Part shown: positions 6,223 through 34,193 of the stretch, in pieces
How the letters are laid out: the number at the start of each line of letters is the position of its first letter
How positions within the stretch are numbered: the stretch's first letter is position 1
NCBI GenBank assembly: GCA_902528485.1
Contig: CABZTA010000001.1
Location: forward strand, 22,955-86,954
Source of the DNA: an uncultured SAR86 cluster bacterium
GTDB taxonomy: Bacteria; Pseudomonadota; Gammaproteobacteria; Magnimaribacterales; AG-339-G14
DNA length: 64,000 bases
Direction: 5' to 3'
The notes under the pieces: generated by a model
Databases searched by the model: none
Told to the model about the DNA's origin: nothing
The model's input: the letters and a program-made list of their open reading frames with translations, nothing else
Translations under genes and position numbers: made by a program

Positions 6223-8313
6223 GTGTTTAAAATAAGTTACATATTTCTTATTTCATTTCTAATTTTAAGTTGTACGGAGGAAAATGAGATGTTGAATCCA
6301 TTCTATGAAGATTATAAAAATGAGTTCCAAGTACCTAATTTCAAAGCAATAAAAATAGACCATTATTTGCCAGCTTTTGATGAAGGTATTAAAGCTCATA
6401 ATAAGGAAATAAAAAAAATTTCAAATAGCGATGAAAAACCATCCTTTGAAAATACGATTGCTGAACTTGAAAGATCGGGAAAGCTGTTAACCAAAGTTAC
6501 AATTGTTTTTTATAATTTATTGTCGACCGATACTAACGATGACTTAGATAAATTATCCGAAAAGATTGGCCCCAAACTTTCTGCTCACAGAGATTCGCTA
6601 TTTCTTAATCAAGAAATATTTCAAAGACTTAAATCTATCAAAGAAAATGAATACCCTTCATTAAACTCGGAGCAACAAAGATTAACTGATGAGATGATAA
6701 GAAACTTTGAAATGAATGGTGCAAACCTATCCCAAGAGAGTAAAGAGAGGTTTATTGAAATAAATAAAACACTAACTGAGCTCTCTATAAAGTTTGATCA
6801 GAATGTTTTAAAAGATACCAACAATTCTGAATTATTGATAAACGATGAAAAGGATCTTAGCGGTTTAACAGCTGAAATCAAAGATCAAGCAAAACGTCTA
6901 GCTGAAAATAAAGGTTATTCAACCGGCTGGGTTTTTAATCCAACAAGAATTAGCATGTATCCCTTCTTAACAAGCTCTACAAATAGAGATTTACGTGAGC
7001 AGCTTTATAAGATGTACATAAACCGAGGAAAAAACCCTAATGAGTTTAATAATGAAGATATCGTCCGAAGAATGGCTAATTTAAGGTTAGAGAAAGCTCA
7101 ACTGATGGGTTTTACAAACCACGCGGAACTTTCATTGCAAAAAACCATGGCAAAATCTTCAAACGGTGTAAATGCTCTTCTTAATCAAGTGTGGGAGCCT
7201 GCCAAAGCGATGGCTCAACAAGAGATAGATGATATGCAAGAACTTATTCAAGAGGAAGGTAATAATTTTGCTCTTCGAGCATGGGATTGGATGCACTACT
7301 CTGAAAAAGTAAGAAAAAGAAAATATGACTTTGATTCAGCAGAAGTTCAACCTTATCTTGAGATGGATTCAATCAGAAATTCTGCCTTTGAGCTCGCCAA
7401 CAGGCTATTTGGTATAAAGTTTGTTCAGAAAAATGATATTCCTAAATATCATTCAGACGTTGATACCTTTGAAGTACTTGATAAAAATGGTAAACATTTA
7501 GGGGTTTTTCTAACGGATTATTTTGCCAGACCATCTAAGCAAGGCGGAGCTTGGATGAATACTTTTAGGGATCAAAGTAATTTCGATGGAAGAGTTAGGC
7601 CTATAGTGTTGAATGTCTGTAATTTTGCGAAACCAAATGACGGTGAAAAAGCTTTTTTGACATTTGAGCATGCTGAAACTCTTTTTCACGAATTTGGTCA
7701 TGCTTTGCATGGTCTACTTTCAGATGTGGATTACCCTTACTTATCCGGAACAAGTGTGACAAGAGATTATGTCGAGTTTCCATCTCAACTTATGGAAAAC
7801 TGGATAAGACATTCTGATTTTTTAGCTGAGTTTGCAAAACATTTTGAAACCGGAAAACCTATTCCAAAAAAATTATTAGAAAAAATGTCAGCTGCAGGAA
7901 CTTTTAATCAAGGATTTGCTACCACTGAATACATGATAGCTTCAATGCTGGATCTTGCGTGGCATACAATAGAATCACCCGTTGAGAACACAGAAAAATT
8001 TGAACAAACTCTTTTCAAAGAAATAGGCAAGCCAGTTGAAATAGATAGCAGATATGGAAGTACCTATTTTGGTCATATTTTTGCTGGAGGTTATGCTGCT
8101 GGATACTACAGTTACATGTGGTCCGAGGTTCTTGATTCACATGCTTTTGAAATCTTTGATAAGGAGGGTTTGTATGACAGTGAATATGCTGAAAAACTGG
8201 AAGATTTTGTTTATAGTTCAGGTAACTCTGTGGATTTAATGAATCAATATGAAAAATTCAGAGGTGAGGAACCAAACGTGAATTCCTTGCTTAGAAAACG
8301 CGGGTTGAATTAA
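6223..8313 (+). CDS. dcp: M3-family zinc metallopeptidase, peptidyl-dipeptidase Dcp-like, lipoprotein signal
   Basis: 696 aa with GTG start, HEFGHALH zinc motif, M3 family length, and N-terminal FLILS|C lipobox. Confidence 0.85.
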   Translation: MFKISYIFLISFLILSCTEENEMLNPFYEDYKNEFQVPNFKAIKIDHYLPAFDEGIKAHNKEIKKISNSDEKPSFENTIAELERSGKLLTKVTIVFYNLLSTDTNDDLDKLSEKIGPKLSAHRDSLFLNQEIFQRLKSIKENEYPSLNSEQQRLTDEMIRNFEMNGANLSQESKERFIEINKTLTELSIKFDQNVLKDTNNSELLINDEKDLSGLTAEIKDQAKRLAENKGYSTGWVFNPTRISMYPFLTSSTNRDLREQLYKMYINRGKNPNEFNNEDIVRRMANLRLEKAQLMGFTNHAELSLQKTMAKSSNGVNALLNQVWEPAKAMAQQEIDDMQELIQEEGNNFALRAWDWMHYSEKVRKRKYDFDSAEVQPYLEMDSIRNSAFELANRLFGIKFVQKNDIPKYHSDVDTFEVLDKNGKHLGVFLTDYFARPSKQGGAWMNTFRDQSNFDGRVRPIVLNVCNFAKPNDGEKAFLTFEHAETLFHEFGHALHGLLSDVDYPYLSGTSVTRDYVEFPSQLMENWIRHSDFLAEFAKHFETGKPIPKKLLEKMSAAGTFNQGFATTEYMIASMLDLAWHTIESPVENTEKFEQTLFKEIGKPVEIDSRYGSTYFGHIFAGGYAAGYYSYMWSEVLDSHAFEIFDKEGLYDSEYAEKLEDFVYSSGNSVDLMNQYEKFRGEEPNVNSLLRKRGLN

Positions 8314-23968: not shown

Positions 23969-24676
23969 TTAAGCGTGACTGGTGCTTGCTTCTTTATCTT
24001 TCATAGCAGCAGCCCATATTGCTAAACCGAAGGCAGCTTTGTTAATCAAATCTGCAAGGTTATAAACAATGTTAAGAGCATCTTCATTTAGTCCATCTCC
24101 GAAATAACCCCAAGCGTATCCAATCGGGTAGATAGCCCACCCAATAGTCACAATCCACTTGATTGTATTAAAGGCTTGTTGACTAGCAGCATTACCACTA
24201 CTCGCATTAGCCTTCGCAGTTTCACCAGCAAAAATTTCATAAATGATGTAAAGCCAAGCAATCATTCCAACAATCCACCATACTACGACATCGCCTAAAC
24301 CAGCTTCACCGATGAAACCACCGATAAGCATGACTAGAGAAGCAATAAGGAGTTTCCAGAAAACAGCTGAACTAATAGCAGTAACCGCAGCGATAATTAA
24401 ATAAAATTCAATTATTTGTAGCGGTACAGTAATTAACCAGTCAATGTACCTGAAAACTGTTGGAGTCTCACCTGCGTAAATCCAGACACCTCTCATATAG
24501 AGGTAGTGCCAAAAAGCTACACCCGTAACCAAACCAGCAACCGTCAAAGATGTTTTCCATTTTACTGGCACGTCTGATCTCTCTACAAAAAAGAAAACAG
24601 TCGAAGCTAACATTATTGCGGCAGCTAACCAAAACGATATACCTACGTAATCGTCAACAGCTAATATTTCTCCCAT
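23969..24676 (-). CDS. proteorhodopsin, blue-absorbing type (Gln at tuning position 105)
   Basis: 235 aa, 7 TM. RYIDWLITVPLQIIEF gives D97/T101/E108 and Q105 (GPR numbering, by-eye alignment). H75 lies in FWHYLYM and the Schiff-base Lys in NLADLINKAAFGL. AGGTGA Shine-Dalgarno lies upstream. Confidence 0.95.
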   Translation of the reverse strand: MGEILAVDDYVGISFWLAAAIMLASTVFFFVERSDVPVKWKTSLTVAGLVTGVAFWHYLYMRGVWIYAGETPTVFRYIDWLITVPLQIIEFYLIIAAVTAISSAVFWKLLIASLVMLIGGFIGEAGLGDVVVWWIVGMIAWLYIIYEIFAGETAKANASSGNAASQQAFNTIKWIVTIGWAIYPIGYAWGYFGDGLNEDALNIVYNLADLINKAAFGLAIWAAAMKDKEASTSHA

Positions 24677-31193: not shown

Positions 31194-32084
31194 TTATTTT
31201 ATAGAATCATTTACTAGATCTTTTGGATCAGGAATTTCAGAAAATCTATCTTTAGAATTGGAAAACATATTTTCTGGAGATACAGATTCAAACCTTGCTT
31301 CATTATCATAAGGATCAGAATAAAAACCTAGAACATAACCGCCCTTTGAATATCCTATTAAAGATTTTAATTCTGAGCTCAAATCTTTAGCTATATCTGG
31401 TGGACAAGATAGATATTGATTTTCCTGCTGCCTTATCCAATTAACTGCATAGTGGAGAAACACTCCGGTTCTTGTGATATTTTTAGTAATATTTTCTCCT
31501 CCGCCATGTAGCACAGTTCCTGTGTATATTAATACAGAGCCTGCATCCATTTCAGCAAAAGCAATTTCTTTTTCAAGCGGCTGCCTGTTTTTATCCCATT
31601 TATGAGAGCCTGGAACTATTTGTGTAGCTCCATTTGCTTTTGTAAATTCGTTTATTGCCCATATAGTGCTTAAAAGAGGCTCTACTTTTCTGGGTAAATA
31701 TCCGCCCCATATTCCCCTATCCCTGTGAAGTATTTGTGAAGATTCACCAGGCCCAATACTCACCGCAGATGTAAAGTGTAATTGATAGCCATCACAATAC
31801 GGTTTTAGGTATTGAGTGGCAGTTTCATTGATTAATTTGTTTAAAGCTAATTCCCTGCATTTTTTTGACCGCGCAATGAGGGCCCCTATCCTATTAGTTT
31901 TAAAACCTGTGAACTCATCACGACCTAGATTGTCACTCAACAAGAAAGGATTTAACTCTTCATTAAGCTCAGCTAGAAAATCAGAATTAACAACATTATC
32001 AATGATAACCCCAGCATCTCTTTCAAGCACTTCTAGAATACTATCGACAGATGAAGTTGATGGAAGATGTTTTAATTCAGCCAT
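31194..32084 (-). CDS. phytanoyl-CoA dioxygenase (PhyH) family Fe(II)/2-oxoglutarate dioxygenase
   Basis: 296 aa with an HxD (ILHRD) ... H (VLHGGGEN) facial triad pattern and PhyH-like length. Confidence 0.8.
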   Translation of the reverse strand: MAELKHLPSTSSVDSILEVLERDAGVIIDNVVNSDFLAELNEELNPFLLSDNLGRDEFTGFKTNRIGALIARSKKCRELALNKLINETATQYLKPYCDGYQLHFTSAVSIGPGESSQILHRDRGIWGGYLPRKVEPLLSTIWAINEFTKANGATQIVPGSHKWDKNRQPLEKEIAFAEMDAGSVLIYTGTVLHGGGENITKNITRTGVFLHYAVNWIRQQENQYLSCPPDIAKDLSSELKSLIGYSKGGYVLGFYSDPYDNEARFESVSPENMFSNSKDRFSEIPDPKDLVNDSIK

Positions 32085-32112
32085 TTTTTGAATTCTACCT
32101 TAAATTTATCCA

Positions 32113-32145
32113 ACAAAAAAAAGGGAGGTTAAAAAACCTCCCTTT
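32113..32145 (-). terminator. rho-independent terminator of the small YRG-repeat ORF
   Basis: On the minus strand: AAAGGGAGGTT-tttt-AACCTCCCTTT followed by a T9 run, 17 nt after the TAA at 32162. Confidence 0.7.
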
Positions 32146-32161
32146 AATTCATAACTTTCAG

Positions 32162-32323
32162 TTATGCAGCAGTCTTGACACCACGGTAAATACCAGGTGT
32201 TTTTGACGACTTTTTGACAACGTTTGCGTTGTGCTTAGTTCCTCTGTAGTTTAAGTCAGAAGCCTTTTCAGACTTTGAATTAACATCAGCAGAAACTTCA
32301 ACGCCTCTATAAAGAGTAGTCAT
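32162..32323 (-). CDS. unannotated 53-aa protein with three YRG repeats (DUF4278 / downstream-peptide-like)
   Basis: Hand translation: MTTLYRGVEVSADVNSKSEKASDLNYRGTKHNANVVKKSSKTPGIYRGVKTAA*. A GGAGGAA Shine-Dalgarno lies 5 nt upstream of the ATG and the ORF has its own terminator. It is below the ORF-track length cutoff. Confidence 0.65.
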   Translation of the reverse strand: MTTLYRGVEVSADVNSKSEKASDLNYRGTKHNANVVKKSSKTPGIYRGVKTAA

Positions 32324-32383
32324 ATCGTTCCTCCAGTTTTCGTTTCAAACGTACATATACCAATTGGTATACACCCTTATCAA

Positions 32384-32520
32384 CGCGTTCCTTCGGTAGA
32401 TATTCGGTCTCGTTCCCAATTTCTTGGTACTTGCTTACCTTTCTTTAAGATCAAAGAAAGAGGTTTTCCTATCTCCCTACTTCCGTTTAATAAACTTAAA
32501 GAAGTTTACTAAATGAACGT
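32384..32520 (-). promoter_or_regulatory. glutamine riboswitch-like aptamer (glnA RNA motif / glutamine-I class), with an unusually long second arm
   Basis: Minus strand, in order: CGUUCA (32519-32514); a 12-bp hairpin (32513-32486); ACGGAAGUAGGGA (32486-32474); a long arm closed by AGAUA/UAUCU; CGAAGGAACGCG (32395-32384). CGUUC/GAACG can form P1. Blocks and order match the remembered consensus. Confidence 0.6.
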
Positions 32521-32526
32521 AAATTG

Positions 32527-32535
32527 ATTATACCA
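32527..32535 (-). promoter_or_regulatory. extended -10 promoter (TGgTATAAT) for the riboswitch/small-ORF unit
   Basis: The minus strand reads aTGgTATAAT. The predicted TSS about 7 nt downstream coincides with the first nucleotide of the CGUUCA block. No good -35 element. Confidence 0.45.
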
Positions 32536-32544
32536 TTTTTTTAA

Positions 32545-32584
32545 AAAAATAAAAAAAACAGGCGAGATAAAATCTCGCCTGTTT
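32545..32584 (-). terminator. rho-independent terminator of glnK-amtB
   Basis: CAGGCGAGAT-aaa-ATCTCGCCTG stem, followed on the minus strand by a long T-rich run, about 20 nt after the amtB stop. Confidence 0.7.
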
Positions 32585-32603
32585 GCGGGAGGAAAAAATA
32601 AAC

Positions 32604-33839
32604 TTAGTCGAACTCTGGGTAAGCCTCTACTCCAATTTCAGTAGAATCAAGACCTGCCGCTTGTTCTTCATCAGTTGCTCTTATTGCTAAGAACATATTG
32701 ATGATGTAGATAACTATTAAGCTAGCAACATAAGTGAATCCTGCGATAGCAAGAACTCCGTAGAACTGCCATAGGAATGAAGCATCCGAAGTGAAAGGAA
32801 CAACCATTACTCCGTAAATACCTACTGTACCGTGAGCAGAAATAGCACCAACTGGATCATCCATTTTTAAGGTTTTCTCAAAGAATAATATTGAGAAGTA
32901 GACTAGGACACCACCGATTGCACCAATGATTACTGCTTCACCACCTGTAGGTGCGCTCGGACCTGCAGTAATAGCTACTAATCCAGCAATGGCTCCGTTT
33001 ATGGCCATTGTGACATCCGATTTGCCAGTTAGAATAAGGCTTGTGAGTAATGCGGCAACTACACCACCTGCTGCAGACATGTTTGTATTCATGAATACTT
33101 GACTCACTGCGATTGCACTTGCTTCATCACTGATGATCAATTCTGACCCACCGTTGAATCCAAACCAACCTAACCAGAGTATCCATGCTCCTAATGCAGC
33201 GATCGGAATATTTGAGCCTGGCATCGCATTGACTGAACCATCCATACCGTACTTTCCTTTTCTAGGACCGAGAACTGTGACTAAAGCTAAAGCTGCAGCC
33301 GCTCCACATAAGTGAACTGTTCCTGAACCTGCGTAGTCTGAATAACCTCCAGAGCTTAAGAAACCGCCGCCCCAATTCCAATAACCTTGAATAGGGTAAA
33401 TGAAACCAGTAAGGATAATAGCGAACAAGAAGAATGGTAAAAGTTTCATTCTTCCGGCTACGGCTCCTGAAACAATAGACATAGCTGTTGCAACAAAGAC
33501 TACTTGGAAAAAGAAGTCAGCTTGTTGAGAATAGTCCATACCATATTCCATTCCAATTTCTTCGATAGGAAGAGCTGTTGATAGACCCCATGAAGATCCA
33601 ATACCAGGAATAACTCCATCGATTAGTGAGGATCCGGGATACATTAAAATAAATCCGCATGCTAGATACATGATGCAAGCAATTGAATATAAACCTAAAT
33701 TTTTTGTTACGATTTCCGATACGTCTTTCTTTTGAACCAATCCAGCTTCCAACATTGTGAAACCAGCAGCCATAAACATAACTAAGGCACCAGCCATAAT
33801 TGCGTAAAAGGTATCTACCGCAAATTTTATTTCATCCAT
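32604..33839 (-). CDS. amtB: ammonium transporter
   Basis: 411 aa with Amt/MEP signature regions (DYAGSGTVHLCGAAAAL, WFGFNGGS, GAISAHGTVGIYG). Confidence 0.93.
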   Translation of the reverse strand: MDEIKFAVDTFYAIMAGALVMFMAAGFTMLEAGLVQKKDVSEIVTKNLGLYSIACIMYLACGFILMYPGSSLIDGVIPGIGSSWGLSTALPIEEIGMEYGMDYSQQADFFFQVVFVATAMSIVSGAVAGRMKLLPFFLFAIILTGFIYPIQGYWNWGGGFLSSGGYSDYAGSGTVHLCGAAAALALVTVLGPRKGKYGMDGSVNAMPGSNIPIAALGAWILWLGWFGFNGGSELIISDEASAIAVSQVFMNTNMSAAGGVVAALLTSLILTGKSDVTMAINGAIAGLVAITAGPSAPTGGEAVIIGAIGGVLVYFSILFFEKTLKMDDPVGAISAHGTVGIYGVMVVPFTSDASFLWQFYGVLAIAGFTYVASLIVIYIINMFLAIRATDEEQAAGLDSTEIGVEAYPEFD

Positions 33840-33854
33840 TAAAATCTCCTAAAA

Positions 33855-34193
33855 TTAAATAGCTTTTGAGCCTGTCTCACCTGTTCTAATTCTTACAACA
33901 TCAGTAAGTTCAGTTATAAAAATTTTCCCGTCGCCAATCTTTCCTGTACCAGCAGCATTTCTGACAGCCTCGATGATTGATGAAGTTTCACCATCATCAC
34001 AAGCTACCTGAAACATTACTTTAGGATTCGTATCTGCACGATACTCAGTACCCCGGTAGGTTTCGGATTGACCTTTTTGTGACCCATAACCTGAGGCTTC
34101 TATTATTGTTGCACCACCTATACCTGAAGAATGTAAAGCTTCCTTAACTAATTCAGTTTTTGATGGTTTTACAATCAATGTAAGTAACTTCAT
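33855..34193 (-). CDS. glnK: nitrogen regulatory protein P-II
   Basis: 112 aa. MKLLTLIVKP...GYGSQKGQSETYRGTEY is the T-loop with Tyr51, and TGKIGDGKIFI is present. The gene lies directly upstream of amtB. Confidence 0.93.
   Translation of the reverse strand: MKLLTLIVKPSKTELVKEALHSSGIGGATIIEASGYGSQKGQSETYRGTEYRADTNPKVMFQVACDDGETSSIIEAVRNAAGTGKIGDGKIFITELTDVVRIRTGETGSKAI

What the first reader, a model, noticed from the sequence alone, without database searches (positions are those of the whole stretch)
32162..32323. Unannotated 53-aa ORF with three YRG repeats as the riboswitch-controlled gene
The ORF lies below the ORF-track cutoff. It translates as MTTLYRGVEVSADVNSKSEKASDLNYRGTKHNANVVKKSSKTPGIYRGVKTAA. 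It has the best Shine-Dalgarno in the window (GGAGGAA, 5 nt spacing) and a dedicated terminator, which argues for real expression. The N-terminal M-x-x-L-YRG and the repeated YRG resemble the DUF4278 / 'downstream peptide' proteins found behind glutamine riboswitches in picocyanobacteria. In cyanobacteria a glutamine riboswitch controls the small glutamine-synthetase inactivating factor gifB. By analogy, this basic mini-protein could be a glutamine-gated effector of nitrogen assimilation (GS, P-II or AmtB) in a heterotroph. Function is unknown, and the glnK-amtB linkage is the new context.
Basis: partly seen in the sequence, partly recalled or inferred. Interest (0 to 1): 0.72.

Follow-up and report, generated by a model that had tools for sequence, protein, structure and literature searches.

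The report
Riboswitch-gated DUF4278 mini-protein in SAR86
A real, conserved 53-residue gene sits behind a glutamine-sensing RNA switch in the abundant marine bacterium SAR86 and in marine T4-like phages; it is a free-standing copy of the N-terminal domain of IF17, the cyanobacterial protein that inhibits glutamine synthetase, and its own target is still unknown.

Summary
The ORF exists as described, but on the minus strand (32323..32162). It forms its own transcription unit: an extended -10 promoter, an Rfam glutamine riboswitch (RF01739), a strong Shine-Dalgarno site (SD), the ORF and a terminator. The unit lies just downstream of glnK-amtB in a SAR86 genome.

The ORF is coding. The frame is intact in 12 SAR86 species-level loci, in 4 loci of a second SAR86-like lineage and in 42 viral contigs. 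Indels are in frame and dN/dS is about 0.4. It belongs to about 455 protein clusters that share three G-I-YRG-V-K-[HWY] repeats.

The window protein scores just under Pfam's DUF4278 cutoff. The family profile aligns end to end with the DUF4278 domain of an IF17-type protein, with all three YRG motifs in register. The IF7-like C-terminal half, where the mapped GS-binding residues lie, is absent. It is therefore a DUF4278-only protein, not an IF17.

The glnK-amtB adjacency is SAR86 synteny, not an operon, and it is not universal.

New here: the host assignment (SAR86 and T4-like phages), and a conserved, covarying 79-nt domain inside P3 of the riboswitch that accompanies this ORF family almost exclusively. 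Function and ON/OFF direction remain inferred.

The parts
32527..32535 (-). Extended -10 promoter element TGGTATAAT, 6 nt upstream of the start of the Rfam aptamer match
   Evidence: Read from the sequence. It is conserved in all 12 SAR86 lineage-A loci, while the 8 nt between it and P1 vary freely. The consensus scan found no full sigma-70 site because the -35 is poor. Lineage B has a canonical TTGAAA-17-TATAAT at the same place.
32382..32521 (-). Type-1 glutamine riboswitch aptamer (RF01739): P1 CGUUC/GAACG, P2 hairpin, extended P3
   Evidence: Rfam 37.6 bits against a gathering score of 35. Related loci score 40-62 bits. All 6 counted P2 pairs show compensatory changes across 28 distinct sequences.
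32397..32475 (-). 79-nt accessory domain inserted in P3: GAAAACCUC, hairpin A, GG(U/C)AAGCAAGUA, hairpin B, GAACGAGACCGA
   Evidence: Rfam skips it as an insertion. The same module occurs in SAR86 lineages A and B, in phage-like contigs and in 43 IMG/VR contigs. Hairpins A and B covary, and about 35 junction nucleotides are invariant.
32335..32381 (-). Conserved linker containing hairpin GUAUACCAAUUGGUAUAU (32372..32355)
   Evidence: Only 2 of 58 columns vary among 12 SAR86 species. The hairpin covaries in lineage B, L017 and L024. Its role is unknown.
32328..32334 (-). Shine-Dalgarno GGAGGAA, 4 nt before the ATG
   Evidence: In this lineage the minimum-free-energy fold pairs it with the 5' strand of P1/P2. 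It is predicted free once P1 is enforced.
32162..32323 (-). 53-aa ORF (stop codon included). It is a stand-alone DUF4278 domain with three YRG repeats (nt 32311..32303, 32248..32240, 32188..32180), pI about 10 and 5.7 kDa
32112..32145 (-). Intrinsic terminator (11-bp stem plus T-run) that ends the unit
   Evidence: It is conserved in all lineage-A loci.
32556..32584 (-). Terminator of the upstream glnK-amtB operon, which separates that operon from the riboswitch unit
   Evidence: 13-bp stem plus T-run. It is conserved.
32604..34193 (-). Context only: glnK (34193..33855, T-loop SETYRGTEY) and amtB (33839..32604)
   Evidence: ORFs. Pfam P-II and Ammonium_transp are assigned to the syntenic genes.

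Best explanation
This is a self-contained regulatory cassette in a SAR86 genome. Its order is: own promoter, type-1 glutamine riboswitch (carrying an extra P3 domain), strong SD, 53-codon ORF, terminator.

Shown:
- The cassette anatomy.
- That the ORF is translated sequence under purifying selection.
- That it is a free-standing DUF4278 domain, the same three-YRG domain that forms the N-terminus of cyanobacterial IF17.
- That the RNA and the ORF travel together in SAR86 and in T4-like marine phages.

Inferred:
- Glutamine binding to the aptamer frees the ribosome-binding site, so the mini-protein is made when the cell is nitrogen-replete. This is the behaviour reported for gifB and for the Prochlorococcus DUF4278 gene.
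- The basic, largely unstructured protein, whose YRG motifs are predicted to form Arg-tipped beta-hairpins, then binds stoichiometrically to a nitrogen-assimilation protein and damps it.
- The most likely target by homology is glutamine synthetase. I put that at about 0.3, and the AmtB/PII option is a serious rival.
For: Anatomy.

Coding:
- The frame is intact in 12 SAR86 species representatives, with an in-frame indel.
- Median dN/dS is 0.36-0.45, and 379 of 381 pairs are below 1.
- About 455 protein clusters share the same three-repeat layout.

Coupling to the riboswitch:
- Every protein-selected locus examined carries RF01739 directly upstream.
- 42 of 43 RNA-selected viral contigs carry the ORF.

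DUF4278:
-.
- The profile aligns 1-53 to residues 1-57 of a 147-aa IF17-type protein that itself scores 77.5 bits, with all three YRG motifs in register.

Direction and role, from the literature:
- gifB and Prochlorococcus MED4 DUF4278 leaders raise expression on N excess (PMC6212724).
- The IF17 N-terminal moiety improves GS inactivation and stability (PMC6316151).

SD control in this lineage: the unconstrained fold (-54.2 kcal/mol) pairs the SD with the aptamer 5' strand. With P1 enforced (-49.2), the SD is 74-97% unpaired.
Against: - No expression, ligand-binding or interaction data exist for this cassette.
- The GS-binding determinants mapped in IF17/IF7 lie in the C-terminal IF7-like part, which is absent here (PMC6212724, PMC6316151). 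That N-terminus was reported to be dispensable for IF17 function.
- The predicted SD-sequestering helix is not conserved in lineage B, L017 or L024, so the expression platform is unresolved. The ON direction rests on analogy.
- The window protein itself is below Pfam's gathering score.
- The AF2 model is weak (pLDDT 72, pTM 0.21).
- Proteobacterial GS is normally controlled by adenylylation, and I could not check whether SAR86 has glnE or glnD.
Confidence: 0.5

Rival explanations
1. PII T-loop mimic. Each repeat (hydrophobic residue, Y-R-G, x, K, aromatic residue) copies the apex of the GlnK T-loop, which is L/T-Y46-R47-G48-x-E-Y51. In E. coli that loop inserts Arg47 into the AmtB pore exit (established knowledge). 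Three Arg-tipped hairpins on flexible 20-residue linkers could plug the three pores of an AmtB trimer, or occupy other T-loop receptors. That would give a glutamine-gated ammonium valve that needs no GlnD.
For: - The window GlnK T-loop is SETYRGTEY. The ORF repeats are LYRGVEV, NYRGTKH and IYRGVKT. The family consensus has I at -1 and H/W/Y at +5.
- AF2 places R-G at the turn of beta-hairpins.
- There are three repeats with a fixed 20-23 residue spacing.
- The cassette sits next to glnK-amtB in two SAR86 lineages despite an inversion.
- Other glutamine riboswitches in metagenomes directly precede amtB.
Against: - The similarity covers 3-4 residues and was noticed post hoc. hhalign aligns repeat 3 to the T-loop with only 4% probability.
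- Position +4 is K, where PII has E.
- The cassette is not near amtB in L024/L025 or in phages.
Confidence: 0.12
2. Phage-derived accessory cassette. Its main role would lie in phage-host conflict, for example retuning host metabolism or translation when glutamine is high. The SAR86 copies would be domesticated or passively inherited, not a core host nitrogen regulator.
For: - The family is common on viral contigs, including one with T4-like head, portal, sheath and terminase genes.
- It hits PHROGs 5049 and 545.
- Many other small-ORF families sit behind compact glutamine riboswitches with phage-type leaders, including one in phage Melnitz.
Against: - In SAR86 the cassette is syntenic and intact across 12 species plus a second lineage. 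The leader is 96-97% identical while the flanking genes are about 80% identical. This points to strong host-level selection.
- No flanking phage genes are seen.
Confidence: 0.15
3. Cis-acting element or autoregulator. Either the ORF matters only through its translation, as a leader peptide, or the basic protein binds the accessory P3 domain of its own leader as feedback.
For: - The P3-insert aptamer and the YRG ORF co-occur almost exclusively: 42 of 42 evaluable viral contigs and all SAR86 A and B loci. Only 18 of 110 compact aptamers precede any YRG ORF.
- The protein has a pI of about 10.
- Weinberg 2010 suggested a peptide-linked mechanism for Downstream-peptide RNAs (PMC2864571).
Against: - No gene lies downstream in the unit for a leader peptide to control, because a terminator follows the ORF.
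- All 53 residues and all three repeats are conserved.
- L017, L024 and cyanobacterial leaders lack the insert yet keep the ORF family, so the co-occurrence may simply reflect shared ancestry.
Confidence: 0.1
4. Not a gene: a chance ORF inside a conserved non-coding RNA.
For: - Nucleotide conservation of the ORF in SAR86 lineage A is unusually high (dS about 0.12, against roughly 20% divergence in flanking genes). RNA-level constraint could produce this.
- A few singleton database entries have frameshifted C-termini (P0009, P0010, P0012, P0123).
Against: - Homologues at 35-60% identity keep the frame, the start, the three motifs and the length while the DNA diverges (dS above 1), and dN/dS stays below 1.
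- There is a full-length profile match to a Pfam domain.
- The strongest SD in the window precedes it.
Confidence: 0.03

Closest known systems
Synechocystis gifB (IF17) with its type-1 glutamine riboswitch (Klahn et al. 2018, PMC6212724)
   Same: Same RNA family (RF01739) directly upstream. Same protein domain (DUF4278, three YRG motifs in register). A small basic protein. Presumably made when nitrogen is replete.
   Different: IF17 is about 150 aa and carries a C-terminal IF7-like moiety that holds the mapped GS-binding arginines. The SAR86 protein ends after the DUF4278 domain. The host is a gammaproteobacterial photoheterotroph, not a cyanobacterium. The aptamer carries a 79-nt accessory P3 domain.
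DUF4278-only 'IF17-like' proteins of marine picocyanobacteria (e.g. Prochlorococcus PMM1846/Yfr6) behind glutamine-II (Downstream-peptide) riboswitches
   Same: Stand-alone DUF4278 mini-proteins controlled by a glutamine riboswitch. Function unproven. Streamlined oligotrophic marine hosts.
   Different: Those use the type-2 (RF01704) pseudoknot aptamer, whereas this one uses type 1 with an insert. The phylum differs. I did not compare sequences with PMM1846 directly.
Glutamine riboswitches reported in marine myophages (Melnitz, Mosig, pelagimyophage MAVGs; PMC9004378) and in cyanophages (PMC9964418)
   Same: RF01739 on T4-like marine phage genomes. I find the same cassette (aptamer plus YRG ORF) on 43 IMG/VR contigs.
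   Different: The published work assigns the Melnitz riboswitch to the upstream tmRNA. In the record, the aptamer is followed by an unannotated 32-aa ORF of a different family with no YRG.
GlnK T-loop / AmtB plug (E. coli GlnK-AmtB complex; recalled from memory)
   Same: A Y-R-G apex motif on a beta-hairpin, threefold repetition, and genomic adjacency to glnK-amtB.
   Different: This is only a motif-level resemblance, not homology. No evidence of binding exists.

Membership tests
Glutamine riboswitch, type 1 (Rfam RF01739, glnA RNA) | Covariance-model score at or above the curated gathering score | tested here: met
   37.6 bits against 35 in the window. Related cassettes score 40-62 bits.
Glutamine riboswitch, type 1 (Rfam RF01739, glnA RNA) | Conserved core (CGUUCA ... 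ACGGAAGUAGG ... CCGAAGGAACG) and a three-stem P1/P2/P3 layout supported by covariation | tested here: met
   The core is invariant across 28 distinct sequences. All 6 counted P2 pairs show compensatory changes. The hairpins of the P3 extension covary. P1 never varies, so it is uninformative.
Glutamine riboswitch, type 1 (Rfam RF01739, glnA RNA) | Selective binding of L-glutamine and ligand-dependent gene control | not testable with these tools
   Needs in-line probing or ITC, and reporter assays.
Pfam DUF4278 (PF14105) | The protein itself scores at or above Pfam's gathering score | tested here: not met
   23.8 bits against 25.3, E 5.7e-5. The match covers residues 1-50 and model positions 1-56 of 57.
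Pfam DUF4278 (PF14105) | Homology to the domain at family (profile) level over its full length | tested here: met
   12 of 12 and 42 of 87 at E<=2e-5 family members hit PF14105. The profile A4 aligns 1-53 to residues 1-57 of a protein that scores 77.5 bits for DUF4278 (hhalign 86%, E 4.9e-6).
GS inactivating factor IF17 (gifB) | C-terminal IF7-like moiety carrying the arginines and lysine needed for GS inactivation | tested here: not met
   The protein is 53 aa and is entirely DUF4278. The IF17-type comparator continues for about 90 more residues (..RRQQAMLTRLAADVG..), which have no counterpart here. No other Pfam hit appears at E<=10.
GS inactivating factor IF17 (gifB) | Binds and inactivates glutamine synthetase | not testable with these tools
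   Needs biochemistry with SAR86 GS.
GS inactivating factor IF17 (gifB) | Expression controlled by a glutamine riboswitch in the 5' UTR | tested here: met
   The aptamer ends 58 nt upstream of the start codon in the same transcription unit. The control itself is inferred.

The most novel reading that the evidence does not exclude
DUF4278 may be a PII T-loop mimic. The three Arg-tipped YRG hairpins of this glutamine-induced mini-protein would plug the three pores of the neighbouring AmtB trimer, or would occupy other T-loop docking sites. SAR86, and phages that infect PII-poor hosts, would thereby gain a riboswitch-driven, GlnD-independent shut-off of ammonium uptake. The accessory P3 domain that accompanies only this ORF family might also be a feedback site for the protein.
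Probability: 0.1. Interest if true: 0.85.

Novelty: new member of a known kind. Interest (0 to 1): 0.5.

Why it matters
The published view is that glutamine riboswitches occur in cyanobacteria and in marine metagenome sequences of unknown affiliation, and that protein-mediated inactivation of GS is unique to cyanobacteria (PMC6212724).

This locus places one large set of those orphan riboswitches in SAR86, one of the most abundant heterotrophic clades of the surface ocean, and in T4-like marine phages. It also shows that the controlled gene is an unannotated DUF4278 mini-protein.

That makes the unknown function of DUF4278 testable outside cyanobacteria. It suggests the domain has a role independent of the IF7-like GS-binding module. 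It also warns that riboswitch-to-gene assignments that skip tiny ORFs can be wrong.

The conserved P3 accessory domain is a new structural variant of a riboswitch whose core has a crystal structure.

Tried and rejected
- tblastn and blastn of family members, the cassette and a neighbouring gene against 50,697 cultured-phage records found nothing useful. nrdAB only showed generic myophage similarity.
- The PDB sequence search had no meaningful hit. NCBIfam had none.
- hhalign of the family against the window GlnK aligned repeat 3 to the T-loop, but at 4% probability. The T-loop idea therefore stays a lead.
- The SD-sequestration model works thermodynamically for the window's lineage but not for lineage B, L017 or L024. 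I rejected it as a general mechanism. A terminator-type expression platform is rejected because no U-run lies between the aptamer and the ORF.
- The AF2 model had pTM 0.21, so I did not run fold searches on it.
- I looked for nitrogen-regulatory genes (glnA/D/E, ntrBC) among the ten ORFs I scanned with Pfam (mostly the largest) and found none. The genome-wide question stays open.
- 'Riboswitch controls amtB/glnK here' is rejected. amtB lies upstream with its own terminator, and it is convergent with the cassette in lineage B.
- 'All environmental type-1 aptamers control YRG ORFs' is rejected. Only 18 of 110 compact aptamers sampled do.

Full report
**1. What is there**

The plus strand of 32162-32323 is full of stops.

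On the minus strand the order is as follows:
- glnK (34193..33855).
- amtB (33839..32604).
- A strong terminator (32584..32556).
- An A/T-rich stretch ending in an extended -10, TGGTATAAT (32535..32527).
- An Rfam glutamine riboswitch (RF01739, 32521..32382, 37.6 bits against a gathering score of 35).
- A 58-nt linker whose 3' end carries the SD GGAGGAA (32334..32328) 4 nt before the ATG.
- The ORF (32323..32162).
- A terminator (32145..32120).
- A PhyH-family gene (Pfam).

GGAGGA-N3-7-ATG occurs only twice in the 64 kb, and the other site is inside a gene. The cassette is therefore its own transcription unit and not part of the glnK-amtB operon.

**2. Whose genome**

A scan of one genome per GTDB species, using the protein alignment, returned ten loci. 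All are titled SAR86 cluster bacterium, at 85-96% protein identity. Two further contigs, one of 897 kb, show the same synteny: secDF, suhB-like, spoU, tRNA, glnK, amtB, ORF, PhyH, TonB receptor. The window (34-38% G+C) is thus SAR86, a gammaproteobacterial heterotroph.

**3. Is the ORF a gene**

- A 53-aa ORF is not remarkable by itself.
- In 12 SAR86 loci the frame is intact, and one locus has an in-frame 3-nt deletion.
- An exhaustive HMMER search and a profile search found about 455 clusters of 52-56-aa proteins with the same layout.
- That layout is three repeats, G-[IN]-Y-R-G-[VTI]-K-[HWY], spaced 20-23 residues apart, with a pI of about 10.
- Across 40 distinct coding sequences, 379 of 381 informative pairs have dN/dS below 1, with a median near 0.4.
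- A few singleton database entries have frameshifted tails. They come from single contigs and do not change the picture.
- The 'not a gene' reading is effectively excluded.

**4. Is it the riboswitch-controlled gene**

The association holds in both directions.

From protein to RNA, every protein-selected locus I examined has RF01739 immediately upstream:
- SAR86 lineage A.
- A second SAR86-like lineage, L017 and L021-L023.
- Another bacterium, L024/L025, which has two tandem aptamers scoring 62.5 and 59.9 bits.
- Phage-like contigs of 173-251 kb.

From RNA to protein, a DNA pattern taken only from the RNA found 43 IMG/VR viral contigs. Of these, 42 have a YRG ORF starting 30-65 nt after the aptamer, and the 43rd ends at the contig edge. 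One of these contigs carries T4-like major head, portal, sheath and terminase genes.

**5. What family**

- The window protein hits Pfam DUF4278 over its whole length but just below the gathering score: 23.8 bits against 25.3.
- All 12 members of a diverse subset hit DUF4278, and 42 of 87 hit at E<=2e-5.
- The metagenome scan yielded an IF17-type protein of 147 aa (L093) behind a compact aptamer. It scores 77.5 bits for DUF4278 at residues 1-57.
- The mini-protein family profile aligns 1-53 to those residues with all three YRG motifs in register (hhalign 86%, E 4.9e-6).
- The remaining 90 or so residues of that protein, the IF7-like part, have no counterpart in the SAR86 protein.
- According to Klahn 2018 (PMC6212724) and Bolay 2018 (PMC6316151), DUF4278 is the N-terminal moiety of IF17. 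It stabilises the protein and improves GS inactivation, but it is dispensable. The critical GS-binding residues lie in the C-terminal moiety.
- The SAR86 protein is therefore a member of DUF4278 at profile level. It is not an IF17.

**6. The RNA**

The 79 nt that Rfam skips inside P3 are not filler.
- The same module occurs in SAR86 lineages A and B, in the phage-like contigs and in the 43 viral contigs. Its order is GAAAACCUC, hairpin A, GG(C/U)AAGCAAGUA, hairpin B, GAACGAGACCGA.
- About 35 junction nucleotides are invariant, and both hairpins show abundant compensatory changes.
- No other Rfam family matches it.
- L017, a close relative of lineage B, and L024/L025 have a plain P3 and still carry the ORF family. 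The module is therefore optional.

In SAR86 lineage A the whole leader is 96-97% identical between species whose flanking genes are about 80% identical.

**7. How widespread, and how specific**

- Only 11 precede multi-YRG ORFs and 7 precede very short one-YRG peptides.
- 11 precede amtB, 2 precede glnA and 3 precede IF7-like ORFs.
- More than 60 precede other small-ORF families.

DUF4278 is therefore one of many small proteins placed under glutamine control in the sea. The insert-bearing aptamer, by contrast, is almost exclusively tied to the three-YRG ORF. This could reflect shared descent of a mobile cassette, or a functional link.

**8. Mechanism**

The cassette layout above is shown. The following steps are inferred.

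*Direction.* gifB and Prochlorococcus DUF4278 leaders raise expression on nitrogen excess (PMC6212724).

*Expression platform.*
- In phage and compact leaders, the 5 nt right after P1 (CACCU or CAUCU) pair with the 3' part of the SD. This matches the published model.
- In the window's lineage, the minimum-free-energy fold instead pairs the 5' strand of P1/P2 with ACUGGAGGAACG (-54.2 kcal/mol). With P1 enforced (-49.2 kcal/mol) the SD is free.
- That helix is not conserved in lineage B, L017 or L024, so the platform is unresolved.

*The protein.* AF2 with an 87-sequence alignment gives pLDDT 72 and pTM 0.21. It predicts beta-hairpins whose turn is the R-G of YRG motifs 1 and 3.

*Target.*
- By homology the most likely target is GS, with the caveat from section 5.
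- A rival lead is that the repeat resembles the apex of the PII T-loop. The window GlnK has SETYRGTEY. In E. coli GlnK, Arg47 of that loop plugs AmtB (established knowledge).
- The resemblance is short and statistically insignificant.

**9. What is known and what is new**

Already known:
- A glutamine riboswitch paired with DUF4278 is established in cyanobacteria (PMC6212724).
- RF01739 hits have been listed in SAR86 MAGs (PMC12379486), in pelagiphage and methylophage genomes (PMC9004378) and in cyanophages (PMC9964418). None of these identify the controlled gene.

I found no description of:
- The SAR86 and phage three-YRG ORF.
- Its equivalence to the IF17 N-domain outside cyanobacteria.
- The P3 accessory domain.

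**10. Verdict**

This is a new member of a known kind, with a new RNA variant attached. Function is not established.

Noticed in passing
window 32397..32475 (-); also L014, L018, L020, L021-L023, L026-L068: A conserved, covarying accessory domain of about 75-110 nt is inserted in P3 of the glutamine riboswitch. It has two hairpins and about 35 invariant junction nucleotides. No other Rfam family matches it. It is nearly always paired with the three-YRG ORF, and it is absent from L017, L024 and cyanobacterial leaders of the same ORF family.
   Followed up: partly
L069-L188 (metagenome contigs with compact RF01739-type aptamers): Most compact type-1 glutamine aptamers sampled precede small ORFs of other, unnamed families (for example ..NGNGTSGY.., ..YVTDNPFYP, ..FFPYYL, MTYRPYQWKKF.., ..DPRLQGI). 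Eleven precede amtB, two precede glnA and three precede IF7-like ORFs. Many share the leader CACCUAACUUUAA-AGGAGGGUG, in which the 5 nt after P1 pair with the SD.
   Followed up: partly
L189 (Methylophilales phage Melnitz MZ577097) 6399-6568: The Melnitz glutamine riboswitch (52.8 bits) lies downstream of the tmRNA, not upstream of it. It is followed by an SD and an unannotated 32-aa ORF starting at the ATG at 6471, MTLYQQWCYLKAQKEYRRRQKILMYFRIRLKG, which has metagenomic relatives such as L176. The record instead annotates an antisense 33-aa ORF. The published assignment of this riboswitch to ssrA looks doubtful.
   Followed up: partly
L017, L021-L023 versus window 32100..32600: In a second SAR86-like lineage the riboswitch-ORF cassette is inverted, so it is convergent with amtB, and the PhyH gene is absent. 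The surrounding synteny is kept. L017 (GCA_002731385.1) is labelled Flavobacteriaceae but has SAR86-type synteny, so it may be mis-binned.
   Followed up: partly
L024/L025 3908-4021: Two tandem compact glutamine aptamers (62.5 and 59.9 bits) precede a YRG ORF in another bacterium (1.45-Mb contig). The locus lies between a GH106 gene and a short-chain dehydrogenase, not near amtB.
   Followed up: partly
window about 32100..33900 versus its flanks, in L001-L012: The 5' part of amtB, the leader and the mini-ORF are 91-98% identical between SAR86 species whose neighbouring genes are 75-85% identical. dS of the mini-ORF is only about 0.12. Constraint on synonymous sites or recent recombination could explain this, but I did not resolve it.
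   Followed up: no
window 33855..34193 (-), residues 38-52 of GlnK: The GlnK T-loop reads SQKGQSETYRGTEYR. It shares Y-R-G-T with repeat 2 of the mini-protein (NYRGTKH). The family repeat also has a hydrophobic residue at -1 and an aromatic residue or His at +5, as the T-loop does. The similarity is not statistically significant.
   Followed up: partly
window 32084..32120 (-): The PhyH-family gene starts only 36 nt after the cassette terminator. A conserved GGTAGAAT (-10-like) lies about 8 nt before its ATG, which suggests a very short leader or a leaderless mRNA.
   Followed up: no
window 23969..24676 (-): A 235-aa ORF looks by eye like a proteorhodopsin (..RYIDWLITVPLQ.., ..LINKAAFG..). That would fit SAR86 photoheterotrophy. 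I did not run it against Pfam.
   Followed up: no
window 32335..32381 (-): The linker between the aptamer and the SD contains a covarying hairpin (GUAUACC-AAUU-GGUAUAU here; other stems in L022, L017 and L024) and the conserved CGAAAACUGGAGG. Its function is unknown, and it does not obviously sequester the SD.
   Followed up: no
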